A DNA stretch of 43,724 nucleotides from Patescibacteria group bacterium (GCA_043815345.1 JBDRJA010000009.1:1-43724), one strand, 5' to 3'. Positions 8,383-39,859 are shown, counted from the stretch's first letter. The notes: generated from the letters alone by a model not told the origin. A program made the numbers and translations.

Positions 8383-9969
8383 CTACTTTCTAATCTTCGG
8401 AGTTACCCAAAATCCCATATACTTACCGAACATTAATCTAGTTTGTGCTTCAAGGCCGGGAATAGCTCCAAATATGATAATGCTAATAGGTAATATTAAC
8501 CACTGGGCAATCATAATAATATTTTTACTAAACCCATAATTGCTTGGCTTTTTTGGCAATAATAAGGTTGACATAATGGCTGCGATTACTAAGCCAATCA
8601 TTGCAAAAGACATTAAGGTGCGAGTTACTAAAGGCAAATTACCGGATAATACAGTAATATTAAAGCGGTCCCCGCCAAGTATCATCGGCAGCCAACTTAT
8701 TATCCCAATAATTATAGCGTTTGTAGCCCATGAATGAAATCCATGAATCTGTACAAAAATTTTACTGATTATTTTTCTCTTTGGCAATTGGTTCCATCTT
8801 TTTATAGTATTGAAAATTAAATAGGGTACATTTTCTACTCCCCAACCCCAGCGCCTCTGCTGTTTATATAAACTTTTAGCAGAAAGCCTAATTGATTTGT
8901 CCATAGTAACATCCATGGAAATAGGAAAGTTTAGTGGTTCTACCCGATAATCACCATTATAATATAAATAGCAATGCCAAAAAATACGAGAATCTTCTGA
9001 AACCATATTAGTAGACCAAAAATCTATATCAATTAAGGCTTTAAAGGTCATTGAATGAGAAGAGTAAGTGGCTAATTTTTCATGCCTGATTTGCTGCATC
9101 ATTTGCCAAAAAGTATTTGAAGAAGCTGCTACTCGAGCAAAAAATGGAGCCTCCCAGACATTATTATGGAAAACTGGGATCGGCTGATAACTTGCTCGGT
9201 AAGGATCTCTAGAAGTAATAAATTTGTAAGTTAAAAGAGAGAAATAACCCTTCTCAACTACCGTGTCAATATCAAAAACGCTAACAATTATATTACCATA
9301 ATCTAGATTCTCTTGATCAATTATCATCTTCTTGGCCATTCTTCCCGCCCATGCCTGGTTTGCTCCCTTGCCTTTTAGTTCACCTATAATGTTACCAGGA
9401 TGATTAGTAATTAAAAAATGTCCAAATTTATTGCCAAATTCATTCTCAATAAACTTTGCTTTTTCCTTTGCCTCTACCCCAGCTCTTTCTTCAATGGCAA
9501 ATACTACAATCATTTTTTCTAATGGAAAACCATCATTAACTAAAGATTCAAAGCATGATCTAACTACTTTAAGGTCTTCATTGTAAGTGGGAAGCAATAT
9601 TAAATGAATAATATCATTCCAATTTTTACCCTGTCTTGCTAAAGAATCTGGCGGCAGCTTATCCAAGCCCTCTTTCTTTTCTAAATTCTTTAGGGCTAAT
9701 AGCCAGTCAACTTTAAGATTTTTTTTCAATCTTCTATATGCCGCAATTAAATGTAGGCTTAAATATAATACTAATAAAAGCCAATAAACATCAAAGGCGA
9801 TAATAAAATAAGCAACCCAGGTTGGCCTAAAGTAAGATAAAATTATCAAGGAAAGCAAAAGAAACCAGGACAAGAAACCAGGTAAAAACTCTAAAACCCG
9901 ATATAATTTTTTATCTTTACCGCTCAACTCTGTAGCTTTGCTAATTTTTAAATAATTCATATTACGCAA
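8383..9969 (-). CDS. Membrane-embedded processive family-2 glycosyltransferase, cellulose/chitin-synthase-like
   Basis: N- and C-terminal TM segments flank a cytoplasmic GT-A-like core with FDIDT, SEDSRIFW and the processive-synthase motif QQRRWGWG (Q-x-x-R-W). Confidence 0.8.
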   Translation of the reverse strand: MRNMNYLKISKATELSGKDKKLYRVLEFLPGFLSWFLLLSLIILSYFRPTWVAYFIIAFDVYWLLLVLYLSLHLIAAYRRLKKNLKVDWLLALKNLEKKEGLDKLPPDSLARQGKNWNDIIHLILLPTYNEDLKVVRSCFESLVNDGFPLEKMIVVFAIEERAGVEAKEKAKFIENEFGNKFGHFLITNHPGNIIGELKGKGANQAWAGRMAKKMIIDQENLDYGNIIVSVFDIDTVVEKGYFSLLTYKFITSRDPYRASYQPIPVFHNNVWEAPFFARVAASSNTFWQMMQQIRHEKLATYSSHSMTFKALIDIDFWSTNMVSEDSRIFWHCYLYYNGDYRVEPLNFPISMDVTMDKSIRLSAKSLYKQQRRWGWGVENVPYLIFNTIKRWNQLPKRKIISKIFVQIHGFHSWATNAIIIGIISWLPMILGGDRFNITVLSGNLPLVTRTLMSFAMIGLVIAAIMSTLLLPKKPSNYGFSKNIIMIAQWLILPISIIIFGAIPGLEAQTRLMFGKYMGFWVTPKIRK

Positions 9970-10009
9970 TTTGTTCCAAGTGCTTTGGATAAAACTAAAA
10001 AAATTCTAA

Positions 10010-10672
10010 CTATCTATTTATCTTTCGGCTAAATAACCAATCTCCTCCATGATACAAAATATATAATCCAATCGTAAAAACTACCCAATTTCTAAAATAA
10101 ATAACATTGTTAACATACATTAACAAACTTTTAAAAATTAATATAGGATGAAGAAAAAAATCCCAACTATTCCAACGGTCAACTAGGCCGATCAATACTC
10201 CAAGGGAAATTAAAGGAATTAATAGCCAAATAAAAATATTACTAATTTTTTTTCCCCAAATTCTTTCTATAAATTCTTTCATCTGATTTAATAATATAAC
10301 AAAAGCTACCCAGCCGATGGATGAATAAGTAAAAAACAACATTATCATCCAAGCCCCTTCGGGGCAAATTGCGTTTGAAAATTCTAATGGGCAATAATTT
10401 ATTAAATGCCTTATATCAGTAATAAGATAGGCTGTGTTAGGAATAAAAAGTAGCCATAAAAACCCAAGCATTACCGCTACTATTTTTTGGGAATGCCTTT
10501 TAAATTTATTTACGCGCCAATATTTATATAAAAACATAAACAAGTAAAAAGGAATTGCTAACAATAATAAATTCCACACCATAACTAAGGCCGGATAGTC
10601 GTTAATAAATAAGCTTTCTGGCCAAAAATCACTATGAAAAAATTTATTGAAACTTTGTGATGAAATATTCAT
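10010..10672 (-). CDS. Polytopic membrane protein, DUF1361-like
   Basis: Multiple TM helices. WNLLLLAIPFYLF and FIPNTAYLITDIRHL resemble the conserved DUF1361 blocks, recalled from memory rather than searched. Confidence 0.6.
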   Translation of the reverse strand: MNISSQSFNKFFHSDFWPESLFINDYPALVMVWNLLLLAIPFYLFMFLYKYWRVNKFKRHSQKIVAVMLGFLWLLFIPNTAYLITDIRHLINYCPLEFSNAICPEGAWMIMLFFTYSSIGWVAFVILLNQMKEFIERIWGKKISNIFIWLLIPLISLGVLIGLVDRWNSWDFFLHPILIFKSLLMYVNNVIYFRNWVVFTIGLYILYHGGDWLFSRKINR

Positions 10673-10857
10673 ATATTATAAAATATCCCGATTTTCGGGA
10701 CAAATATCAAAGCTATGATTTACTTTTAATTAATGGGCCTGTTGCCTAATGCCCGATTCCTTCCTGCTCCTAGAAAGGGTGGCTATAGTTTAAATCCTTT
10801 CCGACAAGCTTCGCGTGCAGTAAATAAGCGAATCGGCAAATTATATAAAAACAAAAA

Positions 10858-12783
10858 TTATAAAGCTACTTCGTCTCCTTCGTGGAATTCCTGTTCGTCT
10901 TGTGTTTGAGTTGAATCAACTTTATTTTCAATTTTATTGCTCTCTTTTATAATTTTGCTCCCCGGATCTTTGTTTTGCTTAAAATCAATTGGCTCCATTT
11001 TCAATGCCTTGTTAAGCGATAGGCCTTCTTTATTAATATCAATCTCTTCTTTATTGCCTTGCTTGTCGGGCCTGTTTGTGGTATTAAACGGCGGATTGTC
11101 TATTCTAAGCTTTCCTAGTTCCTCTACTTTTGCTTTCTTTCTTCTCTCAATTTCTTCTCTCCTTTCTTGGCGCAATATGGATAAGCACTCCTTGCAAAAT
11201 ACCGGACGTACTCCGTCTGGCTTAAAAGATGTTTGCGTTTCTTTATTGCAACGTGAGCAAACCGTCTCAAACTTATATACACCGCTATCAATGGGCCTAG
11301 CTTGCGATTCCCGCCCTTCTCTTATCTTTTTCTCTTCTATTTTTAAATTAGAAAAATTTTTTTTAATAGTTTTGTTTTGATTAAATTTACTGTCTCGATC
11401 CTTGGCGGGAAGAACCTTGTTATTGTTGATATTATTGTCACTTCTCACTGTCTGTTTTACAATTTTATTAGTAGATACTTTATCTTTTGTACTAATATCC
11501 TCATCAATATTAGTATGCCACCTTATTATTTTGTCTTCCACCACCTCTTTCTTTTTTGCATATCTTTCTCGGGAAACCTTAACAACTTTTTCAATATTAC
11601 CGGTTTTTTCCTCCTCACTTAAAGGCGGCAATCCTCGGGCAGAAAAAGGATCAGAGGCAATCCCGTCAATCATTAATTTTAAATAGAGTTCATACTTAGG
11701 CAGATTCACTATGTCTTCCTCGGTAAAAGTCGGGGTAAATTCCTTTACTAACTCTTCCGCATCAGTAGCCCCCACCCTAAAAACTAATAGTGTTCCGACA
11801 TTGCCAAAAACGGCTGGTCTAACAATCTCGCCCAGTTGTTCAATGTATTGGTTAGCCATAATTAAATTAAGGCGATATTTTCTAGCTTCTGATAAGATAT
11901 TAGCAAAGCTATCAGTTGTAAAATTTTGAAATTCATCAATATAAAGATAAAAATCCCTCCTCTCGTTCTCCGGAACATCGACTCTGCTCATAGCTGCTAA
12001 TTGAATTTTAGTAATCATCATAGAACCTAGCAATGAGGAATTATCTTCCCCAATCCTGCCTTTGCTTAAATTCATAATTAGGATTTTACCTTCGTCCATG
12101 ATTTGCCGCATATCAATTGAGGATTTAACTTGGCCAACTATATTTCTAATTAAAGAACTAGATAAAAATTGGCCTACCTTATTCTGGATAGGAGAAACCG
12201 CTTCAGAGGCAAACTTATCAGCATAGCCAGCAAATTCATTTACCCAAAAAGCCTTAACTACCGGATCCTGTATTTTAGAAATTACCCTTTTTCTAAAAGG
12301 CTTATCTGACAGCATGCGGGTTACCGCCAAAAGAGTTGAGCCTGGGTAATCTAAAATAGCCAATATTGAATTGCGCAAAATATATTCAAGGCGCGGCCCC
12401 CATGAATCCGCCCAAAGTTTCTTAAATACCCCGATCAAACCCGAGGCTACCAAGTGTCTAAGATGGGGCTCTACTTGCTCAACAACGTTAAAAGCAATCG
12501 GATATTCCATGTCCGCGGGATTAAAATAAATAACATCATTGACTCTTTCAGTAGGAATATATTCAATAACCTTTTCTGCTAAATCACCATGAGGGTCTAC
12601 TACCGCCACTCCTCTGCCGGCCCGAATATCTTCAATAATCATATTTTCCTGAACCGTTGATTTCCCCATGCCGGTTTTTCCAATTAAATACATATGGCGG
12701 CGACGGTCATCTACTTTTATTCCGAATTTACGCATTTGATTGCGAAAAGTCGTTAAAGCAAAAATTGTAACTAAGTCATCCAT
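10858..12783 (-). CDS. TraD/VirD4 (type IV coupling protein)-like P-loop ATPase without a TM anchor, with a low-complexity tail and a CxxC-x17-CxxC zinc ribbon
   Basis: Walker A GKTGMGKST at about residue 35, Walker B FYLYIDEFQNF, TraG/TraD C-terminal-like block SEARKYRLNLIMANQYIEQL...GTLLVFRVG. K/N/E-rich C-terminal 200+ aa containing CSRCNKETQTSFKPDGVRPVFCKEC (11185-11259). Confidence 0.8.
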   Translation of the reverse strand: MDDLVTIFALTTFRNQMRKFGIKVDDRRRHMYLIGKTGMGKSTVQENMIIEDIRAGRGVAVVDPHGDLAEKVIEYIPTERVNDVIYFNPADMEYPIAFNVVEQVEPHLRHLVASGLIGVFKKLWADSWGPRLEYILRNSILAILDYPGSTLLAVTRMLSDKPFRKRVISKIQDPVVKAFWVNEFAGYADKFASEAVSPIQNKVGQFLSSSLIRNIVGQVKSSIDMRQIMDEGKILIMNLSKGRIGEDNSSLLGSMMITKIQLAAMSRVDVPENERRDFYLYIDEFQNFTTDSFANILSEARKYRLNLIMANQYIEQLGEIVRPAVFGNVGTLLVFRVGATDAEELVKEFTPTFTEEDIVNLPKYELYLKLMIDGIASDPFSARGLPPLSEEEKTGNIEKVVKVSRERYAKKKEVVEDKIIRWHTNIDEDISTKDKVSTNKIVKQTVRSDNNINNNKVLPAKDRDSKFNQNKTIKKNFSNLKIEEKKIREGRESQARPIDSGVYKFETVCSRCNKETQTSFKPDGVRPVFCKECLSILRQERREEIERRKKAKVEELGKLRIDNPPFNTTNRPDKQGNKEEIDINKEGLSLNKALKMEPIDFKQNKDPGSKIIKESNKIENKVDSTQTQDEQEFHEGDEVAL

Positions 12784-12861
12784 AAATTATATTTATAGAT
12801 TGTTATATTATTTAAAAATATGATCTAAAAAAATCATACTGCTATATGACAATATTATTTT

Positions 12862-14298
12862 TTACCCAATTGGCAAATTAGCCGGTGGGGTTCCTTTAAT
12901 TATTGGCGCACTGCTTGCTTTATCACTCTTTTTGCTTTTATCTTCAAATATCGGTTCTAGCATTTGTTCGCTAACTATTTCCTCTCCAACTGGCAGATGG
13001 ATTGGAGGTACTGCTTTTCTTCCCGGCGCCTTCTGGATTAGGGGGGCTCTAACTACACTTTCAACCGGAAAATGCCAAAGGCTGGCTAACTCTTCAACAT
13101 TAAAAATACCTGGAAGTTTACCGGCCCAATCATCACGGTTAATATAATTTCTCATAATCCTATTTTTCTTTATATTAAGCCGCGCCTCTTTAAAAAAATA
13201 AGATGTTCTAGTTGATGTTTTTTTAAGATCTGGCCCTAAATTATTTAAGTCACTATAAAAAAATTGTTTCATAAAACCAACAAAGCCCCCAGCTACTTTA
13301 TTTTTATTCATCACCTCTCTCTTGGCTATATATACCATTCTTATTTTAAATTTAAAACCTAGTTTAGATATTTTTTCTTGGATAGCTTCAACTTGCTTTT
13401 TCTCCTTAGGTTTTAAATTCATCATTTTAAAGCGATTTTCTTCGGCCTCTTCTTTTTCTTTAATGTCCCCCCAAAGTTGATAAATTAACTCGCTAAAATC
13501 ACCTAACCATTTCACTGTTGAATTACTAATTTTATCAAGAATATTATCATCTGATTTAATTTTTTCTCCTAAAATTTTGCTTATCTCCCTTTCTCCCTCT
13601 TCGGGCCACTCAAAACCTATTGGAATTACAATTAGCTGATACCAAAAATTTTCACCTCCTCGTAAACTACTGCACATATCCATCAAAGAAGCTAAAGGAT
13701 CTTTATACATGGCTTCGGTTTCTCCTATTTGATCTTCAAAATCTTTGTAGGTTTTAATTGGGTAAGCAAAATGATTTTTTTGTATAAATTCCCAGCCGTA
13801 AACATCATATTCATCATCGGGGAATTTTGTTGGAAAACCTTTCGTGTAATCATCAACTTCAGTAATTTCTGCATCTGGATATTGAGCATATATTCCTGAC
13901 TCTACTAAATCCTTAAATTTTGTTGGCGTACGGACTAAAAATTGGGTATAACCTTCCATGCTAACAACTTCAAAGCTAAAAGATAATTGAAATTTACCCT
14001 CCCAATAAGTCTCAATTAAATTTAGAGTACCATGAGCGCCACCTAAATATGCAAAAAAATTTTCAACAGCTTTAGGGGTTTGTTCATTTCCTCGAGGAAT
14101 ATCAATAGCCAGTAATAAAAATTTTTGAGTTGGCCCCCACTTAGACCTAATATAATAAATCCAAACTTCTTTTGCTCCCCAAAGAAAAGCTAACGCAATC
14201 GGTATCCACCCAAATAATAAAAATGTCCGCCATAACATCATATCTATCGGCTGATTAAAAAAGTCTGTTATAGATGTAAAATCAATTACAATATCCAT
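12862..14298 (-). CDS. Uncharacterised membrane-anchored protein; upstream partner of the TraD-like ATPase
   Basis: 478-aa ORF with an N-terminal hydrophobic segment WRTFLLFGWIPIALAFLWGA. Blocks LLLAIDIPRGNEQTPKAVENFFAYLGGAHG and C-terminal FNVEELASLWHFP. 78-nt gap to the ATPase gene on the same strand. Confidence 0.7.
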   Translation of the reverse strand: MDIVIDFTSITDFFNQPIDMMLWRTFLLFGWIPIALAFLWGAKEVWIYYIRSKWGPTQKFLLLAIDIPRGNEQTPKAVENFFAYLGGAHGTLNLIETYWEGKFQLSFSFEVVSMEGYTQFLVRTPTKFKDLVESGIYAQYPDAEITEVDDYTKGFPTKFPDDEYDVYGWEFIQKNHFAYPIKTYKDFEDQIGETEAMYKDPLASLMDMCSSLRGGENFWYQLIVIPIGFEWPEEGEREISKILGEKIKSDDNILDKISNSTVKWLGDFSELIYQLWGDIKEKEEAEENRFKMMNLKPKEKKQVEAIQEKISKLGFKFKIRMVYIAKREVMNKNKVAGGFVGFMKQFFYSDLNNLGPDLKKTSTRTSYFFKEARLNIKKNRIMRNYINRDDWAGKLPGIFNVEELASLWHFPVESVVRAPLIQKAPGRKAVPPIHLPVGEEIVSEQMLEPIFEDKSKKSDKASSAPIIKGTPPANLPIG

Positions 14299-14424: not shown

Positions 14425-14455
14425 AATAAAAATCGCCCACTTAGAGCGATTTTTC
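14425..14455 (-). terminator. Intrinsic terminator downstream of the sigma-r4/HARE-HTH gene
   Basis: aatcgc-ccacttaga-gcgatt hairpin (14431-14451). On the minus strand it is followed by tttttatttgg. Confidence 0.6.
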
Positions 14456-14506: not shown

Positions 14507-15754
14507 TTATTCCAAGTTTTTTTTCTCATTTTCTCCTTGCTCCCCATTTTCTTTCTTTAAACTATATTTACCATTCGCCTTTACAAATATATCTTTATTT
14601 AATAATGAGAGTATTATGGTTGTTTTCTTAACTAATCGCTTAGCTAAAACTTTATCAATAATTTCATCACGTTTCATTGGTTCATTTTCAGCTGACAAAA
14701 TTTCTCTAATGACATCAGCTACAGTGCCACGCTTAAACCCCCAGTCCATAAGCCCGTAAATTCCCCTGCCAACCAAAACATATTTCTTGTCTAAAATAAG
14801 CTCATTATGAACCGTTGCGGCATTAGCTTTCTTTTTATCAAAATTTATCTGGTTAATCCGATCAGCAATTTGGATGAAATGCATAGGCTTTCCAAAATGC
14901 TTTAATATTAAATAAATCTTATCATTTATTGTCTTTGGCTTTATTTCTCTCCAATTATTGATTCCCCAATGGCCAAATTTATTTTGCTCAATATTTCTTG
15001 CCGCCCTTAAAAGAGAATATAATATTTTATTATTATTAATAATCTCTTCGTTTTCCTCAAATAAATCCCTTGCCAGAATTTTTGATATATTAATATTATT
15101 TGGAGTTTCTAATTTTTCCCTATATTTAGTGTAGCTATCCAGTTTAATTAGAATATCAATTAATTCCATGGTAGTAAAAGTCTTCTTAAGCTCTTCTATT
15201 TTTAAAGTCAATTCGTTAACTATTTCCTCTAAATGGCTTAATGTTTGATATTTTATTTTATATATTCCTTTAAATTTATCTAAATTGTTTACTTCCTCGC
15301 ATTCATCATGCAATAATTTAGATATTAAGAAATCCAAATGATTTTTATGAATAGTTTCATCTTTCTGCCTGTCTCCACTACCTTCAATTGAAAAGCTAAC
15401 AAGTAATTCAAATAAATATTCTCTTTCTAATAAACCGCCGTGCTCTTCTAGCAATTGGTTAATTACTTTTTTTAATACATCAATATAATTCGCTATTTTC
15501 TCAAGCTGGCGCAACTTTTTTATGCTTGATACTTCAATTTGTCTTACTCTTTCTCTAGTCAATTGATGAGCCCTTCCAACAGTTTCTAAAGTTTCCCTGT
15601 CATTTCCCTTTAAACCAAAACGACGAGTTAAAATGTCTCGTTCTCTAGAAGTTAGCTCGCTAAATATGTTATTAACAATTTCAATAGTATTTAATTTAGC
15701 TACCTCTTCTGCTTTTTGATTATTAATAATTTGGTCTAAGATAGATCTTTCCAT
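14507..15754 (-). CDS. Sigma-70 region-4-like HTH protein with a C-terminal HARE-HTH (RpoE-delta-like) domain
   Basis: N-terminal block LTSRERDILTRRFGL...ETLETVGRAHQLTRERVRQIEVSSIKKLR matches sigma region 4.2. The C-terminal block MHFIQIADRINQ...TVHNELILDKKYVLVGRGIYGL is HARE-HTH-like. No sigma region 2 is visible. Confidence 0.75.
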   Translation of the reverse strand: MERSILDQIINNQKAEEVAKLNTIEIVNNIFSELTSRERDILTRRFGLKGNDRETLETVGRAHQLTRERVRQIEVSSIKKLRQLEKIANYIDVLKKVINQLLEEHGGLLEREYLFELLVSFSIEGSGDRQKDETIHKNHLDFLISKLLHDECEEVNNLDKFKGIYKIKYQTLSHLEEIVNELTLKIEELKKTFTTMELIDILIKLDSYTKYREKLETPNNINISKILARDLFEENEEIINNNKILYSLLRAARNIEQNKFGHWGINNWREIKPKTINDKIYLILKHFGKPMHFIQIADRINQINFDKKKANAATVHNELILDKKYVLVGRGIYGLMDWGFKRGTVADVIREILSAENEPMKRDEIIDKVLAKRLVKKTTIILSLLNKDIFVKANGKYSLKKENGEQGENEKKNLE

Positions 15755-16958: not shown

Positions 16959-17040
16959 ATAACATATAACCCATAACTTATAATTGGTGAACAGTGATTT
17001 TAACACGAGTTATAAGTTATGGGTTATAAGTTATTTAAAC
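16959..17040. repeat. Heptad-periodic palindromic spacer element, TTATAAC family, copy 2
   Basis: Perfect 18-bp stem: 16966-16983 ataacccataacttataa against 17010-17027 ttataagttatgggttat, with a 26-nt loop. Sits between the murB start and the mazF stop. Confidence 0.8.
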
Positions 17041-17041: not shown

Positions 17042-17377
17042 TCAAAATATAAACTTCAGTTGGCTTTTTATTTTTAAAATTTCATCTTGTCCTAAATTAG
17101 TAATCTTCTTTTGCAATCTTCCTTTATCTAAGGTGCGCATTTGAAATAATAATACAACTGAATCTTGGTTAAGCTTAGAAATATTTTTTGGCAGAAAATG
17201 GGTTGTTAATTTTCCCTGCGCTGATAGATTAGAAGTTATTGGAGCAATAATGGCCGTGCTTAAATTTTCGTTTAAAAGATTATTCTGCATTATTAATACT
17301 GGCCGAAAACCAGATTGTTCATGGCCTTTGGCTGGATTTAAATCAGCTAAATATATATCTCCCTGCTTAATACTCAT
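17042..17377 (-). CDS. mazF: MazF/PemK-family endoribonuclease toxin
   Basis: GDIYLADLNPAKGHEQSGFRPVLIMQNN is the canonical PemK/MazF N-terminal block. 111 aa. Confidence 0.88.
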   Translation of the reverse strand: MSIKQGDIYLADLNPAKGHEQSGFRPVLIMQNNLLNENLSTAIIAPITSNLSAQGKLTTHFLPKNISKLNQDSVVLLFQMRTLDKGRLQKKITNLGQDEILKIKSQLKFIF

Positions 17378-17382
17378 AATAA

Positions 17383-17616
17383 TTATTTAATTTGAGGTTG
17401 AATTAAATTCCATTCATCTTCAGAAGGCAGGTCATTAAAACTTATTTTAGCTAATTCTTTAGTGTCTTGGCGAAGTTTATTTTTAATCCAAAATTCTAAA
17501 GCATTTTTTATTATTGAACTTTGCGTTTGATCCTGGTTAAAAGATGCTTTTTTAACTTCTTCAACCAAGGAAGAAGGTAATATTGCTGAAATACGAGTTG
17601 TTTTTGTATTGCTCAT
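17383..17616 (-). CDS. Ribbon-helix-helix (CopG/MazE-like) antitoxin
   Basis: TRISAILPSSLVEEVKKAS...QSSIIKNALEFWIKN fits a strand-helix-helix pattern. 77 aa, ending 6 nt upstream of mazF. Confidence 0.7.
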   Translation of the reverse strand: MSNTKTTRISAILPSSLVEEVKKASFNQDQTQSSIIKNALEFWIKNKLRQDTKELAKISFNDLPSEDEWNLIQPQIK

Positions 17617-17617
17617 A

Positions 17618-17926
17618 TTAAATAGTAATAGTATGTAAGCTTATTTCCTGTGGATGATAATTTTTTATTGTAATTTGAGCTTCTTTTTTTTCTAAAATTA
17701 ACTCAATTACCTCACGAATATTTTTTAAAGCTTCATCTAAAGTTTTTCCTTGACTGTAACAACCTTCTAAAACTGGGCATTCAACAATATAAAAACCATC
17801 CTCGTCTTTCTCAACGAAAAGAGGAAATTGTTTTCCTTTAAATTTTTTTGACATAGCTTTTCTCATAATTTTATCGTTACATAATAAATAACTTTGGTCA
17901 AGAAAAAAAATTATTTCCTTCATCAT
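17618..17926 (-). CDS. HicB-fold (UPF0150) antitoxin-like protein without a DNA-binding extension
   Basis: FPLFVEKDEDGFYIVECPVLEGCYSQGKTLDEALKNIREVIELIL is the HicB N-terminal fold signature. The real start is probably the ATG at 17866 or 17854. Its stop is 1 nt from the RHH gene start. Confidence 0.78.
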   Translation of the reverse strand: MMKEIIFFLDQSYLLCNDKIMRKAMSKKFKGKQFPLFVEKDEDGFYIVECPVLEGCYSQGKTLDEALKNIREVIELILEKKEAQITIKNYHPQEISLHTITI

Positions 17927-21422: not shown

Positions 21423-21971
21423 CTAAAACAACTCTTTAATATCATCAATCTCTAAAACTACTTCATGATTACAATAATGATTGTGATAACTAGTATATAA
21501 GTAATTTTCAATATCTTTAACAACGTAGTGTTCCATCGCATTTAAATTTATGTATTTTCCTTTTTGTCTTATAAACCTTTTAGATAATAATATTTCTGGC
21601 CAACAGCTTTTACGCCATATCTTATTATCCCTATCCTTAGTTCTATAAGCCGACATCCTCATTTCATCCAAAATATCATACTGCTTATCCTCTCTTAAAA
21701 GCTTTAAAATTTTATGAGCTGTAAAACTTTTAAAATCACTAACTGTTTCTAGTAAGCTAAAATTATCTTTCACTTTTAACATTATATGAAGGTGATTTAT
21801 TAGAATTGTATAGGCATACACTTTCCAACCTTTATTTTCACGACAATATTTTAAACTATCTAATATTACTTGATAATATTTATTATTTCTTAAAATCGGT
21901 AATCCGTTTATTGCTTTTATGGTAAGAAAAAATAAACTGCCATCTTTTTCTGTTTGTTTTAGTGTGGGCAT
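21423..21971 (-). CDS. HUH/Y1 tyrosine transposase-like protein (IS200/RAYT, COG1943-like)
   Basis: HUH motif in ILINHLHIMLKV. C-terminal block KYINLNAMEHYVVKDIENYLYTSY resembles the YI..NP...GLV....Y.YSS region that carries the catalytic Tyr. 182 aa. Confidence 0.78.
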   Translation of the reverse strand: MPTLKQTEKDGSLFFLTIKAINGLPILRNNKYYQVILDSLKYCRENKGWKVYAYTILINHLHIMLKVKDNFSLLETVSDFKSFTAHKILKLLREDKQYDILDEMRMSAYRTKDRDNKIWRKSCWPEILLSKRFIRQKGKYINLNAMEHYVVKDIENYLYTSYHNHYCNHEVVLEIDDIKELF

Positions 21972-25842: not shown

Positions 25843-26937
25843 TTAGGATAAAATTTGGACATCGCCAGAGATTGTAAGCTTATCACTGGCTAAACTCAAA
25901 GGCTTGTTAATCTTATAAACGGTAGCCTTTTGGCCTGATACAAGTGTGCTATATTCTCTAATAATTCTCAATTCATCTGAAAATTTTCTTAAAACTTTTT
26001 CAAATAATTCTTTTTGAGAAATTAAAATCACTATAATTCCCCCCATTCTTAAAATACGATTAAATTCTTTAAGCATGTTTAGATAAAAATTATCAAGATC
26101 CATATTTTTAAAATGAAGCCCCCATGGCGGATCTGTCACGATTTTATCAATCTCATTATCTTCAATTTCTTTCAGGTAAACGGCATCCCAATATTTAATT
26201 AACAGCTTATCTTTTATCCTCGCATTATTAATATTTTTTACTTTTAACCGTAAATTATCAATAATTTTTGAATTATTGTCGCTAGCAATTACATACTTAC
26301 AAGGATATGACAATACTCTTTCAATGGGTATTGCGCCAGAACCGCAAAAAGGATCTAGACATATTTCTTTAGAGCTAGGCTCTGAAATTAAACATAAAAT
26401 ATGGGCTAACTCAGATCTTAGCTCGCCTTTAGCCAAATATTTTTCTTGATCGTGGTTCTGAGTAAAACGCATACCAAAAAATCCAACCCCTTCCCTTCTC
26501 AACATAAGCCAAAATTCTATATCAGGTTTGCTTCGGCTAACTTTAAGTGTTGTAATTTTAGAAAATTTTTTTTCCAGATCTGAAATTAAACTTCTGCTCG
26601 TAGGAATCATTCTATTTTCTTTTGAAATAATTACTCTAAAAAAACACTTTTTGGCCGGAAGATTTTTTAAAATAAGTCTTGGTAATTTCTGATCATTATT
26701 TATTTTTTTTATCAATTGATTTAATGATTCATTCTCAGTTCTTTTAAATAATTTTAATAAAACAAAACTATTATTAAAAAAGCGAATTTCTTTAATATTC
26801 TCTAAGTTGGAGCTTGTTCGGTAGATTATTAAACCATCAAAAATATTAATTATATCTGCATCTCTAATTTTTTGTCTTAAGGATTCCTTAATTAAACTAT
26901 TGAAACCTGTAATAAAAGTTGAAAAATATGTAATCAT
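25843..26937 (-). CDS. Class I SAM-dependent RNA (guanine-N2-type) methyltransferase with a THUMP-like N-terminal domain
   Basis: SAM motif I DPFCGSGAIPIE, catalytic motif IV VTDPPWG, N-terminal about 150 aa typical of the UPF0020/THUMP-type family. Confidence 0.72.
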   Translation of the reverse strand: MITYFSTFITGFNSLIKESLRQKIRDADIINIFDGLIIYRTSSNLENIKEIRFFNNSFVLLKLFKRTENESLNQLIKKINNDQKLPRLILKNLPAKKCFFRVIISKENRMIPTSRSLISDLEKKFSKITTLKVSRSKPDIEFWLMLRREGVGFFGMRFTQNHDQEKYLAKGELRSELAHILCLISEPSSKEICLDPFCGSGAIPIERVLSYPCKYVIASDNNSKIIDNLRLKVKNINNARIKDKLLIKYWDAVYLKEIEDNEIDKIVTDPPWGLHFKNMDLDNFYLNMLKEFNRILRMGGIIVILISQKELFEKVLRKFSDELRIIREYSTLVSGQKATVYKINKPLSLASDKLTISGDVQILS

Positions 26938-28985: not shown

Positions 28986-30737
28986 ATGCTAAATAAAAAA
29001 CAAATAAAAATAGTCTTAGAAAAAGCAGAAATTTTATCTAGTAATGATTATAAAAAATTTGCTAAAGAAGCAGAAGAAAGCGGTAAAAAAATTGAAGATT
29101 ACCTTATTGAGAAAAAAATTATTACTCCTCTCTCTTTGTATGAAAGCGCCGCTCAATATTTTAAAATTCCTTTTATAAATCTTAAGGGCCAAAATATACG
29201 CAAAGATATTTTATTTAGCGTTCCTGAACCAATTGCTACCGCTCATAATTTAATTACTTTTGATAGCGACAATAAAACAATAAAAATAGCAACTTCTAAC
29301 CCTGGCAACTTGGAAATATTTGAATTTATTAAAAAGAAGACCGGACTTGAGCCAAGTATATATTTAACAACGCCAGACAGCATTAAAGAGGGACTCAAAC
29401 AATACCACAAAAGCTTAAAAGCTGAGTTTAGCTATTTAACAAAAAGCTCAGGCAAAAAAGACGACCAAGCCTTGCCAGACATGATCGGGGGAAAGAAGGA
29501 ATTAAAAAAACTAGCGCAAGACTTGCCGGTAGTTAGGATAGTTGACACTCTATTAGAATATGCAATTTTTCAAGAGGCAAGCGATATCCATATTGAACCG
29601 GAAGAAAAAGATATGATTGTCCGCTACCGGATAGATGGAATACTCCACAATGTTATGACCTTGCCTAAAAGCGTGCAGGCAGGCATAATTGCCAGAATAA
29701 AAATATTAGCCAACCTTAAAGTTGACGAGCATCGGCTCCCGCAAGACGGACGCTTTAAAATTTCAAATGAAGAGTATAAAATTTCTTTCAGAGTCTCTAT
29801 AATCCCTACTATTGAGGGTGAAAAAATTGTTATGCGTCTCCTGAATGAAAAAGCTCAAATTCTAAATTTAGAACAACTCGGGTTCCAGCCAAAAAGTTTT
29901 GAAATTATTAAAAGAAATGTGAAAAAACCGCACGGTATGGTATTAGTTACCGGCCCAACAGGATCTGGTAAAACCACTACCCTATACACTATCTTAAACA
30001 TTCTAAATAAGCCAGAAGTAAATATTTCCACCGTTGAAGATCCGATTGAATATCGAATGCCAAGAATAAACCAATCGCAGATAAACCCTAGAATTGGTTT
30101 TACATTTGCGATCGGACTAAGATCAATTTTGCGCCAAGATCCTGACATAATTATGGTGGGGGAAATTCGTGATGAAGAAACTGCTGAAATTGCTGTCCAC
30201 GCCGCCATGACGGGCCATCTAGTCCTTTCCACTCTGCATACTAATGATGCTGTCACCACTCTCCCCCGCTTAAGCGATATGGGAATACCTTCATTTCTAA
30301 TCGCCACAACTACTAACGTTATTATTGCTCAACGTCTAGTTAGAAAAATTTGCCCCAACTGTATTCAGAGCTATAATTTAGATAAACAAACCGTGGAAGA
30401 ATTAAATAAACAGCTTAATGTTACTAACCTATTAAAAACATTAGAAGAAGAAAAAGCTATCCTTCATTCAAAGGGCGGTATCGAATCCTTGCTTTTTTAC
30501 CGCGGTAAAGGATGTAAAAAATGCAATGATTCTGGTTATAAAGGACGCATAGGAATTTATGAGACATTGGAAATAACTAGGGAAATTTCAGATCTTATTC
30601 TAAAAAAAGCCGGATCTAACGAGATTAAAGAAACATCTGAAAAACAAGGGATGCTAACAATTGTAGAAGACGGTTTTATTAAAGCTAAAAACGGTATTAC
30701 AACCATTGAAGAGATAATGAGAGTTTCTAAGGAATGA
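28986..30737 (+). CDS. pilB: Type IV pilus / T2SS assembly ATPase (GspE/PilB family)
   Basis: N-terminal GspE_N-like domain, Walker A GPTGSGKTTTLY, Walker B DPDIIMVGEIRD, His box TGHLVLSTLHTND, tetracysteine CPNC...CKKC. Confidence 0.92.
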   Translation: MLNKKQIKIVLEKAEILSSNDYKKFAKEAEESGKKIEDYLIEKKIITPLSLYESAAQYFKIPFINLKGQNIRKDILFSVPEPIATAHNLITFDSDNKTIKIATSNPGNLEIFEFIKKKTGLEPSIYLTTPDSIKEGLKQYHKSLKAEFSYLTKSSGKKDDQALPDMIGGKKELKKLAQDLPVVRIVDTLLEYAIFQEASDIHIEPEEKDMIVRYRIDGILHNVMTLPKSVQAGIIARIKILANLKVDEHRLPQDGRFKISNEEYKISFRVSIIPTIEGEKIVMRLLNEKAQILNLEQLGFQPKSFEIIKRNVKKPHGMVLVTGPTGSGKTTTLYTILNILNKPEVNISTVEDPIEYRMPRINQSQINPRIGFTFAIGLRSILRQDPDIIMVGEIRDEETAEIAVHAAMTGHLVLSTLHTNDAVTTLPRLSDMGIPSFLIATTTNVIIAQRLVRKICPNCIQSYNLDKQTVEELNKQLNVTNLLKTLEEEKAILHSKGGIESLLFYRGKGCKKCNDSGYKGRIGIYETLEITREISDLILKKAGSNEIKETSEKQGMLTIVEDGFIKAKNGITTIEEIMRVSKE

Positions 30738-30771
30738 CGATTTTCGATTGACGATTTGTGATTATCAATTT
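30737..30771. repeat. Heptamer array (NNCGATT x5) starting at the pilB stop codon
   Basis: Units gacgatt/ttcgatt/gacgatt/tgtgatt/atcaatt. Shares the 21-mer GACGATTTTCGATTG(A/C)CGATT with the array after the ABC exporter stop. Confidence 0.75.
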
Positions 30772-30909
30772 ATTGTATTATTGTTATACCAAACGAATTT
30801 ATAAATTTTTTATGCATTTACTAAATACCGACTTAAATATTATCAATTCGCATCATTTGCATTCCTGTCTGCCGACAGGCAGGTATTCGCGGATTAGCAT
30901 CATACTCAT

Positions 30910-31572
30910 ATGAATATCTTTTGCATAATCCCTGCTTATAACGAAGAAAAGACCATTGAAGAAGTTATAAATAAAGTTAAGCCATTAGTTGATAAAGTGG
31001 TGGTAGTTGATGATGCTTCAACAGACAAAACCTATCAACTTGCTAAAAAGCATACTATTACAGTTTTAAGGCATATTATTAATAGAGGCCAGGGCGCCGC
31101 TTTGCAAACCGGTAATGAATATGCTATAAACAAGGGAGCAGACATTATTGTCCACTTTGACGCTGATGGTCAATTTTTGGCCCAAGATTTAAAAGATATT
31201 ATTGCCCCTATTAAATTCGGGGAAGCGGATATTGTTTTTGGTTCAAGGTTTTTAGAAAAAAAATCAAATATGCCTTGGTTTAAGAGATATGTTATTATGC
31301 CCCTGGCAAAACTTGTGAATAATTTAACTATTAAGGCTCCCCTAACTGATCCACAGAATGGTTTTCGCGCCTTGGCCGCAAACGCATCTAAAAAAATAAT
31401 TATTGAGCAGGATGGCATGGCACATTGCACGGAAATAATTATGAAAGCCCTGCGATATAAATTAAAGATAAAGGAAGTGCCGGTTACAATTATTTATCAT
31501 TCCTTTGGGCAGAAATTTTCAGGCGGTATAAAAATTATTAAAGATTTAATAATTTCAAAATTATTAAATTAA
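30910..31572 (+). CDS. Family-2 glycosyltransferase (polyprenyl-phosphate sugar synthase-like)
   Basis: IIPAYNEEKTIEEVI, VVVDDASTDKT and HFDADGQ blocks. About 220 aa, soluble GT-A. Confidence 0.87.
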   Translation: MNIFCIIPAYNEEKTIEEVINKVKPLVDKVVVVDDASTDKTYQLAKKHTITVLRHIINRGQGAALQTGNEYAINKGADIIVHFDADGQFLAQDLKDIIAPIKFGEADIVFGSRFLEKKSNMPWFKRYVIMPLAKLVNNLTIKAPLTDPQNGFRALAANASKKIIIEQDGMAHCTEIIMKALRYKLKIKEVPVTIIYHSFGQKFSGGIKIIKDLIISKLLN

Positions 31573-31585
31573 ATTAAAGCTAATT

Positions 31586-31912
31586 ATGATTCAACAAGTT
31601 CTTGCCTTAATTATTATTGCCTACTTTTTAGCTCGCCTTTTTTGGCAGAAACAAAAAAATCAAATTGGAGCTAATGAATTTTTATTTTGGTTATTTTTTT
31701 GGCTATTAGCGGCTGGAGCAATTATAAGTTTAAAGTGGATTGACGATTTAGTAGCTGGCCTAGGATTTTCCGGATCGGGTATAGAAGTTCTTATTTATGT
31801 CGCAATCGCCATGCTTTTTTACCTAGTTTTTAAATTACGCTTACGGCTTGAAAAAATTGAAAGAGATATTACGAAAATAGTAAGAGCCATTTCTTTAAAA
31901 AATAAGAAATGA
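31586..31912 (+). CDS. Small membrane protein, DUF2304-like
   Basis: Three hydrophobic helices followed by a charged tail, LRLEKIERDITKIVRAI. The position after a GT2 gene is typical of DUF2304. The family call is from memory. Confidence 0.6.
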   Translation: MIQQVLALIIIAYFLARLFWQKQKNQIGANEFLFWLFFWLLAAGAIISLKWIDDLVAGLGFSGSGIEVLIYVAIAMLFYLVFKLRLRLEKIERDITKIVRAISLKNKK

Positions 31913-31916
31913 TATT

Positions 31917-33026: not shown

Positions 33027-33047
33027 TTACTTAGTAATTTATAGGAT

Positions 33048-34259: not shown

Positions 34260-34346
34260 TTAGTGGGTTTTCTTTATATACCCGGTTTCTCTCTGCACAC
34301 ATTAAAAATATTTCCATTACTTCTTTTCTTCCAGAGAGCATCTTGA

Positions 34347-34610
34347 TTAAAACCTAATGAAAACATCCAAGCTTCGCGGCTTGGTTTTTTCTTTGTATTC
34401 TTTAGTGATTTTCTCAAATTTATCCATATCTATATCGTCCAAGGCCACTTCCCGGCGTAAAGTTATTATTTCTTCAGATTGAGTAATGGTCATGTAAAAA
34501 TTCTTGTATAAAAATAAAAAAACTAATACAAAAATAATAAGACTGATAAAAATAATTAAACTATAAAAATAAAAAAATATTTTGCTGCTAGAAATTTTTA
34601 ATTTAATCAT
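34347..34610 (-). CDS. Hypothetical single-pass membrane protein, last gene of the pilMNO operon
   Basis: 87 aa with one N-terminal TM (FFYFYSLIIFISLIIFVLVFLFL). Lies downstream of the pilO-like gene on the same strand. Confidence 0.45.
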   Translation of the reverse strand: MIKLKISSSKIFFYFYSLIIFISLIIFVLVFLFLYKNFYMTITQSEEIITLRREVALDDIDMDKFEKITKEYKEKTKPRSLDVFIRF

Positions 34611-34716
34611 ACTTAATACTTATTATTTCTAATTCTATTATAATAATGTTAATCAATATTCATAACCCATTAAGCTAATGCTTACTATTTACAAATGATT
34701 TCCGTTTCTAAAATTA

Positions 34717-35298: not shown

Positions 35299-35377
35299 AA
35301 AAAGCTAAATTTTTTTTATCCTCTTCCTATCGAGGTATTCAAATAATTATATAAATATTTATCCATAATCTAATAAT

Positions 35378-35914: not shown

Positions 35915-35923
35915 AGTATTTTT

Positions 35924-37105: not shown

Positions 37106-37113
37106 AATATTTG

Positions 37114-39828: not shown

Positions 39829-39859
39829 CTAAGATATAAGAATATTGCGCTAAAAATCG

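What the first reader, a model, noticed from the sequence alone, without database searches (positions are those of the whole stretch)
10858..14298. Two-gene module: uncharacterised membrane protein plus a TM-less TraD/VirD4-like ATPase, with no other T4SS or conjugation genes nearby
- **ATPase:** it has clear coupling-protein-type motifs (GKTGMGKST, FYLYIDEFQNF, SEARKYRLNLIMANQ). Its Walker A lies about 35 residues from the N-terminus, so it lacks the N-terminal TM anchor of canonical VirD4/TraD.
- **Partner:** the gene immediately upstream (78-nt gap, same strand) encodes a 478-aa protein with an N-terminal membrane segment and conserved-looking blocks (LLLAIDIPRGNEQTPKAVENFF; FNVEELASLWHFP). 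I know of no assigned function for it. It could supply the membrane anchor in trans.
- **Context:** no relaxase, VirB4, VirB6 or pilin-like conjugation genes are within the window, and the module sits among housekeeping genes.
- **Interpretation:** it looks like a stand-alone, possibly core, DNA or protein translocation or uptake device rather than a conjugative element. This is the best candidate here for an undescribed system.
Basis: partly seen in the sequence, partly recalled or inferred. Interest (0 to 1): 0.7.

Follow-up and report, generated by a model that had tools for sequence, protein, structure and literature searches.

The report
Split two-gene coupling-protein ATPase of Patescibacteria
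These two neighbouring genes are the two halves of one membrane-tethered, conjugation-type motor ATPase that related ultra-small bacteria and some Bacillus phages encode as a single protein; it is a conserved chromosomal gene pair, not a mobile element, and what it moves is still unknown.

Summary
On the minus strand, a 478-aa single-pass membrane protein (12862-14298) lies 78 nt upstream of a 641-aa VirD4/TrwB-type ATPase with no membrane segment (10858-12783). No T4SS, relaxase or integrase gene is in the window.

- **Partner:** it is Pfam DUF8128 (PF26449). Its predicted fold matches only the R388 VirB4 protein TrwK; the match probably falls on the VirB4 N-terminal domain, though the aligned residues were not shown.
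- **One protein in two pieces:** other Patescibacteria and Bacillus phages carry DUF8128 and this ATPase fused in one 725-1140-aa protein. A tree of ATPase domains places the split form inside the fused forms, so it is a gene fission.
- **Link to T4SS:** one fused subfamily sits beside the patescibacterial T4SS in 3 of 3 loci examined. No VirB4 lies near any of about 165 split-type loci.
- **Split form:** it carries an added C-terminal zinc ribbon. Its ATPase core is the most conserved gene in the neighbourhood (median 83% identity).

The anchor-in-trans idea is well supported. "Undescribed stand-alone system" is only partly supported: orphan coupling-protein homologues in Patescibacteria were reported in 2025. 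I rate it a new variant of a known kind. Its substrate and any dependence on a T4SS are unresolved.

The parts
12862..14298 (-). DUF8128 (PF26449) membrane subunit, 478 aa. It has an N-terminal TM helix, a cytoplasmic domain whose predicted fold matches VirB4 (probably its N-terminal domain), a disordered linker and a C-terminal PPxNLP motif.
   Evidence: - ORF.
- PF26449 annotation from precomputed Pfam hits.
- AF2 model: pLDDT 75, pTM 0.69.
- Foldseek against PDB: the top 11 hits are all TrwK/VirB4, ten of them at E 1e-4 to 2e-3.
- Foldseek against BFVD: the top hit is Bacillus phage G gp156, E 7e-16.
- Family size: 2346 clusters at 50% identity.
14161..14235 (-). Single TM helix of the DUF8128 subunit (aa 22-46). 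The N-terminal side is acidic and the C-terminal side is basic, so by the positive-inside rule the bulk of the protein is inferred to be cytoplasmic.
   Evidence: Hydropathy, AF2 helix at aa 31-57, coordinates. The topology is an inference.
12991..13008 (-). PPIHLP motif (aa 431-436; family consensus EPPMxLP). In fused relatives this motif lies just before the ATPase domain.
   Evidence: - Nearly invariant in alignment A1.
- Aligns to EPPANLP at residues about 301-307 of the fused protein P0484.
- The matching region of the fused model has pLDDT above 90.
12871..12888 (-). Second PPANLP motif at the extreme C-terminus (aa 471-476), after a variable disordered linker. I propose it tethers the subunit to the ATPase.
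   Evidence: P471, P472, N474, L475 and P476 are nearly invariant. The motif is disordered in the isolated model, pLDDT 44-48. The tether role is an inference.
12784..12861 (.). 78-nt AT-rich spacer between the two genes. No terminator-like site was found in it.
   Evidence: In other genomes the spacer ranges from overlapping to a few hundred nt.
10858..12783 (-). TM-less VirD4/TrwB-type P-loop ATPase, 641 aa. The core is aa 1-425. The C-terminal tail carries a zinc ribbon, a coiled coil and two short conserved motifs.
   Evidence: - Pfam TrwB_AAD_bind 3.2e-11, TraG-D_C and DUF87.
- Profile search of PDB sequences hits only TrwB, E 6.6e-6.
- hhalign against TrwB: probability 92.5%; against TrwK/VirB4: no match.
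- 54% identical to the ATPase half of the fused protein P0484.
12655..12681 (-). Walker A motif, GKTGMGKST (aa 35-43).
   Evidence: Invariant in alignment A2; coordinates.
11920..11952 (-). Walker B region, FYLYIDEFQNF (aa 278-288).
   Evidence: D283, F285, Q286 and N287 are invariant. The region aligns to the Walker B region of TrwB.
11185..11259 (-). CxxC-x17-CxxC treble-clef zinc ribbon (aa 509-533). Among the proteins I compared it occurs only in the split clade.
   Evidence: - Pfam zf_Tbcl_2 2.1e-10; NCBIfam TIGR04272 at 41.1 bits against a cut-off of 36.
- The four Cys residues are invariant.
- The pattern is absent from all fused relatives scanned.
- This domain type binds zinc in Methanosarcina mazei small proteins (PMC12704099).
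14347..14375 (-). Promoter-like site (TTAATA-17-TATAAT) upstream of the DUF8128 gene.
   Evidence: Consensus scan only.
14428..14454 (-). Terminator-like hairpin between the sigma-r4/HARE-HTH gene and the DUF8128 gene.
   Evidence: Consensus scan only.
10684..10702 (-). Terminator-like hairpin downstream of the ATPase gene. Together with the promoter-like site it suggests a two-gene transcription unit.
   Evidence: Consensus scan only.
14507..15754 (-). Conserved upstream neighbour: a protein with Sigma70 region 4 and HARE-HTH domains, 415 aa.
   Evidence: Pfam. It lies directly upstream of DUF8128 in 61 of 69 loci, including loci where the ATPase is elsewhere.
8383..10672 (-). Conserved downstream neighbours: DUF1361 membrane protein (10010-10672) and a multi-pass GT2 glycosyltransferase (8383-9969).
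   Evidence: Pfam. They follow the ATPase in most loci, and the GT2 does so even where DUF8128 is unlinked.

Best explanation
The two genes encode the two subunits of one membrane-tethered type IV coupling-protein (T4CP) motor. The motor belongs to a Patescibacteria-wide family in which a DUF8128 domain replaces the usual N-terminal two-helix membrane domain of VirD4/TrwB.

**Shown**
- DUF8128 and this ATPase are the N- and C-terminal halves of single polypeptides in other Patescibacteria and in Bacillus phages.
- The split form nests inside the fused forms in a tree of ATPase domains, so it arose by gene fission at the domain boundary.
- The ATPase is TrwB/VirD4-type and has intact Walker motifs.
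- The DUF8128 fold resembles VirB4. A fused relative matches full-length VirB4 over about 900 aligned columns.

**Inferred**
- The DUF8128 subunit sits in the membrane by its single helix, with its globular domain in the cytoplasm.
- It binds the membrane-facing side of the ATPase through the interface that is intramolecular in fused relatives. Its PPxxLP motifs help hold the two together.
- The ATPase forms a TrwB-like hexamer that uses NTP hydrolysis to recruit and push a substrate, DNA or protein.
- The clade-specific zinc-ribbon and coiled-coil tail acts as the receptor for a substrate or partner.

**Least certain**
- One TM helix per subunit cannot form a conduit. I therefore propose that the motor hands its substrate to the chromosomal MPF-FATA-like T4SS, which most Patescibacteria encode elsewhere in the genome.
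For: **Rosetta-stone fusion**
- PHROG phrog_5156 is an 824-position profile. The ATPase matches positions 408-820 (E 2.9e-67) and DUF8128 matches positions 76-289 (E 5.4e-15).
- A search with phage G gp156 returned dozens of patescibacterial proteins of 725-1142 aa annotated PF26449 plus PF10412.
- DUF8128 aa 61-445 aligns to P0484 residues 6-316 (E 3e-21), including the ELASLWH-P and PPxNLP motifs. The ATPase aligns to P0484 residues 319-722 at 54% identity (E 6e-156).
- The closest fused group (F1, which includes a Berkelbacteria protein) has an N-terminal TM helix and an ATPase domain 57-64% identical to the window's.
- The NJ tree puts the split clade as sister to F1 and inside the fused radiation.

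**Fold**
- The DUF8128 model hits only TrwK/VirB4 in PDB at E 1e-4 to 2e-3. In BFVD it hits gp156-like phage proteins (E 7e-16) and the VirB4-like gp155.
- The fused model (pLDDT 87) hits full-length VirB4 first (E 5e-16, about 900 aligned columns). It then hits TrwB with TM 0.61-0.64 when normalised to TrwB length.

**ATPase type**
- Searches place it with TrwB/VirD4.

**Gene linkage**
- The genes are adjacent in 43 of 57 and 29 of 70 loci, in at least three different genomic contexts.
- Both genes remain intact where they are unlinked.

**T4SS link at family level**
- The TM-less fused subfamily F2 lies divergently next to PrgI, TraC-like, VirB4 and T4SS pilin genes in 3 of 3 loci.
- Phage G gp155 (VirB4-like) is adjacent to gp156.
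- VirB4 is present in 2417 of 3035 Patescibacteria genomes, and coupling-protein genes usually lie far from it (PMC12102498).
Against: - No VirB4 or other T4SS gene lies within 6-10 kb of the window's pair or of about 165 split-type loci.
- Genomes carry several paralogues, so the split form need not be the one that serves the T4SS. L062 and L075 have an F3-type fused copy 7-8 kb from the split pair, and L173 has two fused copies in tandem.
- The literature counts coupling-protein homologues in more genomes (2918) than VirB4 (2417). It also reports that the homologue in Southlakia epibionticum is dispensable while the T4SS is essential.
- The split ATPase core is unusually conserved for a coupling protein (median 83% identity). 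It sits among cell-wall and cell-division genes.
- Physical interaction, hexamer formation and substrate were not tested.
- The VirB4 resemblance rests on fold search alone, with TM scores of only 0.25-0.34. Sequence profiles find no VirB4 relation.
Confidence: 0.45

Rival explanations
1. The complex is the same two-subunit, membrane-tethered motor, but it works without any T4SS. It would act as a housekeeping DNA (or nucleoprotein) motor at the membrane, anchored much as FtsK/SpoIIIE is. Possible roles are clearing or segregating DNA at division, or processing incoming DNA. The zinc ribbon would bind nucleic acid.
For: - The pair is syntenic with dcw, MreBC, DivIC and DacB-type genes in many genomes.
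- The ATPase core is the most conserved gene in the neighbourhood: 82.6% median identity against 52% for MurB.
- No T4SS genes lie nearby in about 165 loci.
- Coupling-protein homologues are reported in about 500 more genomes than VirB4, and exaptation has been suggested.
- A membrane anchor alone is enough for an FtsK-like pump.
Against: - Closely related fused paralogues are T4SS-adjacent.
- Genome incompleteness could explain the excess of coupling-protein homologues over VirB4.
- Saccharibacteria are reported to have FtsK, so a replacement is not obviously needed. FtsK was not checked in this lineage.
- No DNA-binding test was possible.
- Conserved synteny among fairly close relatives is weak evidence of function.
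Confidence: 0.3
2. The two genes are neighbours only through inherited gene order and do not act together. DUF8128 would work with the upstream sigma-r4/HARE-HTH protein, and the ATPase with the downstream GT2/DUF1361 envelope genes.
For: - The sigma-HARE gene is adjacent to DUF8128 more often (61 of 69) than DUF8128 is to the ATPase (29 of 70).
- The ATPase keeps the GT2 neighbour when DUF8128 is elsewhere.
Against: - The fusion of the two modules in many proteins across Patescibacteria and phages is direct evidence of a functional link.
- The pair persists in contexts that lack the sigma gene or the GT2 gene.
- A terminator-like site separates the sigma gene from DUF8128.
Confidence: 0.07
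3. The pair is a remnant or cargo of a mobile element (ICE, plasmid or prophage) or of an anti-phage defence system.
For: - The ATPase gives hits of modest score (no curated cut-off is listed for this library) to PADLOC mad8 (3.7e-14) and HerA (1e-10).
- It has homologues in Bacillus phages.
- A MazF/HicB-like gene pair and an IS200-like transposase lie 3-9 kb away.
Against: - No integrase, relaxase, flanking repeats or compositional island.
- Gene order is conserved among housekeeping genes in well over 100 genomes.
- No DUF8128 relative was found in IMG/VR viral contigs.
- The split clade has very short branches, which points to vertical descent under strong constraint.
Confidence: 0.03

Closest known systems
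VirD4/TrwB/TraD type IV coupling proteins (structural archetype: R388 TrwB)
   Same: - FtsK/HerA-superfamily P-loop domain with a helical insertion between Walker A and Walker B.
- Passes the Pfam TrwB_AAD_bind cut-off.
- The profile search of PDB sequences hits only TrwB.
- hhalign probability 92.5% over TrwB residues 118-394.
- Foldseek TM 0.61-0.64 for the 61%-identical domain of a fused relative.
   Different: - No N-terminal TM domain in the ATPase polypeptide.
- The membrane-proximal module is a VirB4-like DUF8128 domain with one TM helix, encoded by a separate gene.
- It has a C-terminal zinc ribbon.
- No relaxase or T4SS gene is nearby.
- It is chromosomal, core-like and slowly evolving.
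Fused DUF8128-T4CP proteins of Patescibacteria (for example Berkelbacteria US94_C0010G0005, P0422) and their T4SS-adjacent TM-less subfamily
   Same: Same two modules in the same order, with the same junction motifs. The ATPase domain is 53-64% identical and the DUF8128 domain 23-32% identical.
   Different: - They are one polypeptide.
- They lack the zinc-ribbon tail.
- One subfamily has no TM helix and lies beside VirB4, PrgI and pilin genes next to dnaA.
VirB4 (R388 TrwK)
   Same: Overall architecture: an N-terminal domain that docks at the membrane plus a C-terminal hexameric ATPase. TrwK is the only significant PDB fold match for DUF8128 and the top match for the fused relative.
   Different: - No sequence-level relation.
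- The ATPase half is VirD4-type, not VirB4-type. It gives no P-loop_TraG or AAA_10 hit.
- No VirB3, VirB6 or VirB8 genes are nearby.
pIP501 TraJ (TM-less coupling protein) with its proposed membrane anchor TraI
   Same: A coupling protein without a TM segment that is thought to be held at the membrane by a separately encoded membrane protein (review PMC12857230).
   Different: - TraI is a small two-TM protein. No homology with DUF8128 was tested and none is expected.
- The TraJ/TraI system is plasmid-borne and lies inside a complete conjugation operon.
Bacillus phage G gp155-gp156 and phage CP-51 gp91 (PHROG phrog_5156)
   Same: gp156 is a fused DUF8128-like domain plus a T4CP-like ATPase.
   Different: - They are phage-encoded and have no TM helix.
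- The ATPase is only about 30% identical.
- They sit next to a VirB4-like gene (phage G) or a Replic_Relax gene (CP-51).
- Their function is also unknown.

Membership tests
Type IV coupling protein (VirD4/TrwB/TraD) | FtsK/HerA-type P-loop nucleotide-binding domain with Walker A and Walker B motifs, related to TrwB | tested here: met
   - Pfam TrwB_AAD_bind: 43.2 bits against a cut-off of 20.5.
- PDB profile hit to TrwB, E 6.6e-6.
- hhalign probability 92.5%.
- Walker residues are invariant.
Type IV coupling protein (VirD4/TrwB/TraD) | All-alpha domain inserted within the nucleotide-binding domain | tested here: inconclusive
   About 235 residues lie between Walker A and Walker B. They align to TrwB residues 118-394 and are helical in the fused-relative model (helices 492-602). 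I could not superpose the insertion on its own.
Type IV coupling protein (VirD4/TrwB/TraD) | N-terminal transmembrane domain in the same polypeptide | tested here: not met
   The ATPase has no hydrophobic segment (highest Kyte-Doolittle score 1.32). The only TM helix is in the separately encoded DUF8128 protein.
Type IV coupling protein (VirD4/TrwB/TraD) | Genetic association with a relaxase and/or a T4SS (mating-pair formation genes) | tested here: not met
   None is present in the 43.7-kb window or in the flanks of about 165 split-type loci. The association is met only by the fused F2 paralogues. The rest of the genome was not available.
Type IV coupling protein (VirD4/TrwB/TraD) | Hexamer formation, DNA-stimulated ATPase activity, substrate or relaxosome recruitment | not testable with these tools
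   This needs biochemistry or multimer modelling.
VirB4 | CagE_TrbE_VirB N-terminal domain, recognisable by sequence | tested here: not met
   No Pfam hit for any of the 42 DUF8128 members, even at E up to 10. hhalign against TrwK finds nothing. Only fold-level similarity exists.
VirB4 | VirB4-type C-terminal ATPase (P-loop_TraG / AAA_10) | tested here: not met
   The window's ATPase hits neither family. hhalign against TrwK gives probability 1.6%. TrwK itself and phage G gp155 do hit these families.
DUF8128 (Pfam PF26449) | Match to the family model | tested here: met
   The precomputed PF26449.1 annotation covers the window's own protein and nearly all homologues. The family name appears. 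The local Pfam copy lacks this model.
FtsK/SpoIIIE | FtsK_SpoIIIE motor domain, gamma (winged-helix) domain, multi-pass N-terminal membrane domain | tested here: not met
   No FtsK_SpoIIIE or FtsK_gamma Pfam hit. The ATPase has no TM segment. TrwB and VirB4 outrank all other PDB folds.
HerA-NurA / defence HerA systems | HerA ATPase paired with a NurA nuclease or a defence effector | tested here: not met
   Only marginal DUF87 (24.1 bits against a cut-off of 23.2) and PADLOC HerA or mad8 hits. No nuclease or effector gene is nearby. The partner gives no PADLOC hit.
pIP501-type TM-less T4CP with anchor in trans (TraJ/TraI) | TM-less coupling protein held at the membrane by a separately encoded membrane protein | not tested
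   This is a functional analogy taken from the literature. The arrangement is supported here indirectly by the fused homologues. No interaction or localisation data exist.

The most novel reading that the evidence does not exclude
DUF8128-coupling proteins may be a T4CP lineage that kept a VirB4-type N-terminal domain, making them an evolutionary bridge between VirB4 and VirD4. In a large Patescibacteria clade the split, zinc-ribbon-bearing version would have been recruited as a core, T4SS-independent membrane motor. A possible role is moving DNA or nucleoprotein during division, or during acquisition of nucleic acid from the host. That would bear on the open question of how these bacteria, which cannot make nucleotides, obtain them when ComEC is dispensable.
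Probability: 0.2. Interest if true: 0.8.

Novelty: new variant of a known kind. Interest (0 to 1): 0.55.

Why it matters
- **A near-universal orphan:** Patescibacteria make up a large share of bacterial diversity. The 2025 survey found coupling-protein homologues in 2918 of 3035 genomes, almost all far from virB4, and their role is unknown.
- **What this adds to their description:** these homologues carry a domain with a VirB4-like fold (DUF8128) in place of the usual TM domain. They fall into several paralogous subfamilies, only one of which is T4SS-linked in the loci examined.
- **A marker for experiments:** one subfamily has been split into an anchor gene and a motor gene with an added zinc ribbon. 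That gives a concrete handle for co-occurrence analysis, Tn-seq re-analysis and co-folding.
- **Evolutionary interest:** a VirB4-like N-terminal domain joined to a VirD4-type motor bears on how the two T4SS ATPases diverged.
- **Phage link:** it also gives a first lead on a set of uncharacterised Bacillus phage proteins (phage G gp156, CP-51 gp91).

Tried and rejected
- **Mobile element:** rejected. No integrase, relaxase, flanking repeats or compositional island, and gene order is conserved.
- **Defence system:** rejected. The ATPase gives only modest PADLOC hits and the partner gives none.
- **Phage origin of the window's genes:** rejected. No DUF8128 relative was found in IMG/VR, and tblastn of DUF8128 against phage genomes found nothing. 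The phage link appeared only through profiles and folds.
- **VirB4 membership by sequence:** failed.
- **FtsK replacement:** neither supported nor excluded. Saccharibacteria are reported to have FtsK, a second literature search added nothing, and I could not check FtsK in this lineage.
- **Complex prediction:** I prepared concatenated DUF8128-linker-ATPase sequences but did not submit them. I modelled a natural fused relative instead.
- **Redundant look-ups:** two contig look-ups showed the same adjacent pair.
- **Not resolved:** in about 40 species where DUF8128 is not followed by the ATPase, I could not find where the ATPase lies.

Full report
**1. The observation**

Both ORFs exist as described and lie on the minus strand.
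- The 478-aa protein is at 12862-14298 and the 641-aa ATPase at 10858-12783. A 78-nt AT-rich gap separates them.
- The quoted motifs are all present.
- The ATPase has no TM-like segment. The upstream protein has one, at about aa 21-46.
- A terminator-like hairpin follows the upstream sigma-like gene, and a promoter-like site precedes the DUF8128 gene. No terminator-like site lies in the gap, and another follows the ATPase. This fits a two-gene transcription unit, but it rests on consensus matches only.

**2. The window**

The window looks like a low-GC (about 32%) Patescibacteria chromosome (organism names).
- It carries dcw-type genes: MraY, FtsW, MurG, a Mur ligase and MurB.
- It also carries glycosyltransferases, a P-type ATPase, ABC transporters, two tRNA genes and a type IV pilus cluster at 28986-41774.
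- There is no VirB4, VirB6, relaxase or integrase gene. The module has no compositional anomaly and no flanking repeats.

**3. The ATPase**

- It passes the Pfam cut-offs for TrwB_AAD_bind (3.2e-11, aa 22-344), TraG-D_C and DUF87.
- It carries a C-terminal CxxC-x17-CxxC treble-clef zinc ribbon at aa 505-535. This domain type binds zinc in Methanosarcina small proteins (PMC12704099).
- A profile of 32 homologues hits only TrwB among PDB sequences. It aligns to TrwB residues 118-394 with 92.5% probability and does not align to the R388 VirB4 protein TrwK.
- The Walker A and B residues and the four cysteines are invariant.

**4. The partner**

- The local Pfam and NCBIfam copies give no hit. The precomputed annotation calls it PF26449, DUF8128.
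- The family is large: 2346 clusters at 50% identity with E up to 1e-3.
- An AF2 model (pLDDT 75, pTM 0.69) shows an N-terminal helix, a mixed alpha/beta globular domain, a disordered linker and a conserved C-terminal PPxNLP motif.
- Foldseek against PDB returns TrwK/VirB4 chains as its top 11 hits, ten of them at E 1e-4 to 2e-3 with probability 0.99-1.0 and TM about 0.3.
- Against viral models the top hits are Bacillus phage G gp156 (7e-16), phage JL (6.5e-13) and phage Slash (3.6e-12). The VirB4-like gp155 also appears (6.6e-6).

**5. The two proteins are halves of one**

- PHROG phrog_5156 is a single 824-position family. The ATPase matches its positions 408-820 (2.9e-67) and DUF8128 matches its positions 76-289 (5.4e-15).
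- Phage G gp156 (825 aa) aligns to DUF8128 aa 63-240 through its residues 17-170 (hhalign probability 88.6%). It aligns to the ATPase through its C-terminal half (30% identity, 1e-42).
- A search with gp156 returned dozens of patescibacterial proteins of 725-1142 aa annotated PF26449 plus PF10412. They come from Berkelbacteria, Falkowbacteria, Saccharibacteria and Gottesmanbacteria.
- The window's DUF8128 aligns over aa 61-445 to residues 6-316 of the fused protein P0484, including the ELASLWH-P and PPxxLP motifs. The ATPase aligns to residues 319-722 at 54% identity.
- In the fused proteins the EPPANLP motif lies about 12 residues before the first strand of the ATPase domain.
- In the split DUF8128 the same motif (PPIHLP, aa 431-436) is followed by a variable linker and a second copy of the motif at the very C-terminus (aa 471-476).

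**6. Subfamilies and direction of change**

The fused proteins fall into groups:
- **F1:** about 930 aa, with a TM helix. ATPase 57-64% identical to the window's, DUF8128 about 32% identical.
- **F2:** about 728 aa, no TM helix. ATPase 53-56% identical.
- **F3:** about 830 aa, with a TM helix. ATPase 43-45% identical.
- **Phage clade:** ATPase about 30% identical, no TM helix.

An NJ tree of ATPase domains, rooted on TrwB, puts the split clade as a tight, short-branched sister of F1, nested inside the fused radiation. The split state is therefore derived, that is, a gene fission. The CxxC-x17-CxxC pattern was found only in the split clade.

**7. Structure of a fused relative**

The F1 protein P0422, modelled with a 69-sequence alignment, gives pLDDT 87 and pTM 0.74.
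- Its best PDB matches are full-length TrwK/VirB4 chains (E 5e-16 to 2.5e-14). The alignments span about 900 columns but the TM scores are low (0.25-0.30).
- Next come TrwB lacking its first 70 residues (TM 0.61-0.64 normalised to TrwB, rmsd about 5 A), HerA and Cag-beta.
- The overall architecture therefore resembles VirB4, while the motor domain is VirD4/TrwB-type.

**8. Gene neighbourhoods**

| View | Result |
|---|---|
| From DUF8128, 80 best species-representative loci | ATPase directly downstream in 29 of 70 informative loci; absent within 10 kb in 41 |
| From DUF8128, same loci | Sigma70-r4/HARE-HTH gene directly upstream in 61 of 69 |
| From the ATPase, 80 metagenome loci | DUF8128 directly upstream in 43 of 57, plus one locus with a 2.3-kb insertion |

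- The pair persists in different contexts: with YceG upstream and AlaRS downstream, or with a CAP-domain gene upstream.
- Where the genes are unlinked, both remain intact.
- No VirB4 lies in the flanks of any split-type locus.
- By contrast, F2 lies divergently next to PrgI, TraC-like, VirB4 and T4SS pilin genes beside dnaA-dnaN in 3 of 3 loci.
- Paralogues coexist in one genome. L062 and L075 have an F3-type gene 7-8 kb from the split pair. L173 has an F3-like and an F1 gene in tandem.

**9. Conservation**

Median identity to the window's proteins across species representatives:

| Protein | Median identity |
|---|---|
| ATPase core (aa 1-425) | 82.6% |
| ATPase, whole protein | 66.7% |
| GT2 | 62% |
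| Sigma-like protein | 56% |
| DUF8128, whole protein | 52.5% |
| MurB | 52.5% |

**10. Literature**

- Quinonero-Coronel et al. 2025 (PMC12102498) found 5713 VirD4-type homologues in 2918 of 3035 Patescibacteria genomes. Only 148 lay near virB4, and VirB4 itself was in 2417 genomes.
- They noted that the homologue in Southlakia epibionticum is not essential although the T4SS is, and they raised the possibility of exaptation.
- A full-text search for DUF8128 or PF26449 found no paper. I found no description of the domain, the split form or the zinc-ribbon tail.
- The pIP501 pair TraJ and TraI is a precedent for a TM-less coupling protein that is thought to be anchored in trans (PMC12857230).

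**11. Interpretation**

- **Shown:** the two genes encode a fission version of a DUF8128-type coupling protein.
- **Inferred:** the single-pass DUF8128 subunit holds a TrwB-like hexameric ATPase at the membrane through the former intramolecular interface, and the zinc-ribbon tail recruits a substrate or partner.
- **Unresolved:** whether the motor feeds the chromosomal T4SS (my preferred reading, about 0.45) or works on its own, for example as a DNA motor linked to division or uptake (about 0.3).
- **Verdict:** a new variant of a known kind, of moderate interest.

Noticed in passing
window 14507-15754 (-): A 415-aa protein with Sigma70 region 4 at its N-terminus and HARE-HTH (RNA polymerase delta-like) domains at its C-terminus. 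It lies directly upstream of DUF8128 in 61 of 69 genomes, even where the ATPase has moved away. In those genomes it is shorter (336 aa in L012). It may be functionally linked to DUF8128, or the adjacency may simply be inherited gene order.
   Followed up: partly
window 28986-41774: A type IV pilus gene cluster 15-27 kb from the module: PilB (+ strand), then PilO, PilM, a PilX-like gene, three prepilin-like genes and PilC on the minus strand.
   Followed up: partly
window 17042-17926 (-) and 16959-17034: A MazF/PemK-type toxin gene and a HicB-like antitoxin-domain gene sit between murB and an ABC transporter inside the cell-wall gene cluster. Just downstream of the mazF gene is a 31-nt inverted repeat, 90% complementary, with 14 nt between the arms.
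   Followed up: no
window 21423-21971 (-): An IS200/IS605-type Y1 transposase-like ORF (182 aa, weak Pfam hit) lies between a Mur ligase gene and an amidohydrolase gene in the dcw-like cluster. Similar Y1_Tnp ORFs sit near the T4SS-adjacent fused coupling proteins in L172 and L174.
   Followed up: no
L088 (Bacillus phage G, gp155-gp156) and L089 (phage CP-51, gp91-gp90): Large Bacillus phages encode a VirB4-like ATPase (gp155: P-loop_TraG, AAA_10) next to a fused DUF8128-like/T4CP-like protein (gp156). In CP-51 the fused protein is followed by a Replic_Relax family protein. This looks like a phage-borne module related to conjugative DNA processing. Its function is unknown.
   Followed up: partly
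L172, L174 and the DNA-less locus: The patescibacterial T4SS cluster (PrgI, TraC-like, VirB4, a large unknown protein, and four or more T4SS_pilin genes) lies directly beside dnaA-dnaN, with a TM-less DUF8128-coupling protein transcribed divergently. This matches the published note that these T4SS lie near the replication origin.
   Followed up: partly
L173 4899-10784: Two fused DUF8128-ATPase paralogues (831 aa and 927 aa) lie in tandem, separated by a 178-aa ORF with no Pfam hit, between a tRNA-guanine transglycosylase gene and secDF.
   Followed up: no
window 8383-9969 (-) and L106 8507-10102: A multi-pass GT2 glycosyltransferase (Glyco_trans_2_3) stays downstream of the ATPase even where DUF8128 is unlinked. 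In L106 the ATPase is instead preceded by nrdR, nrdD and nrdG and followed by a gene that I judged DnaQ-like (exonuclease) from its sequence alone; no domain search was run on it.
   Followed up: partly
window 25843-26937 (-): An RMKL-like (UPF0020) methyltransferase gene is inserted between mraY and ftsW in the dcw-like cluster.
   Followed up: no
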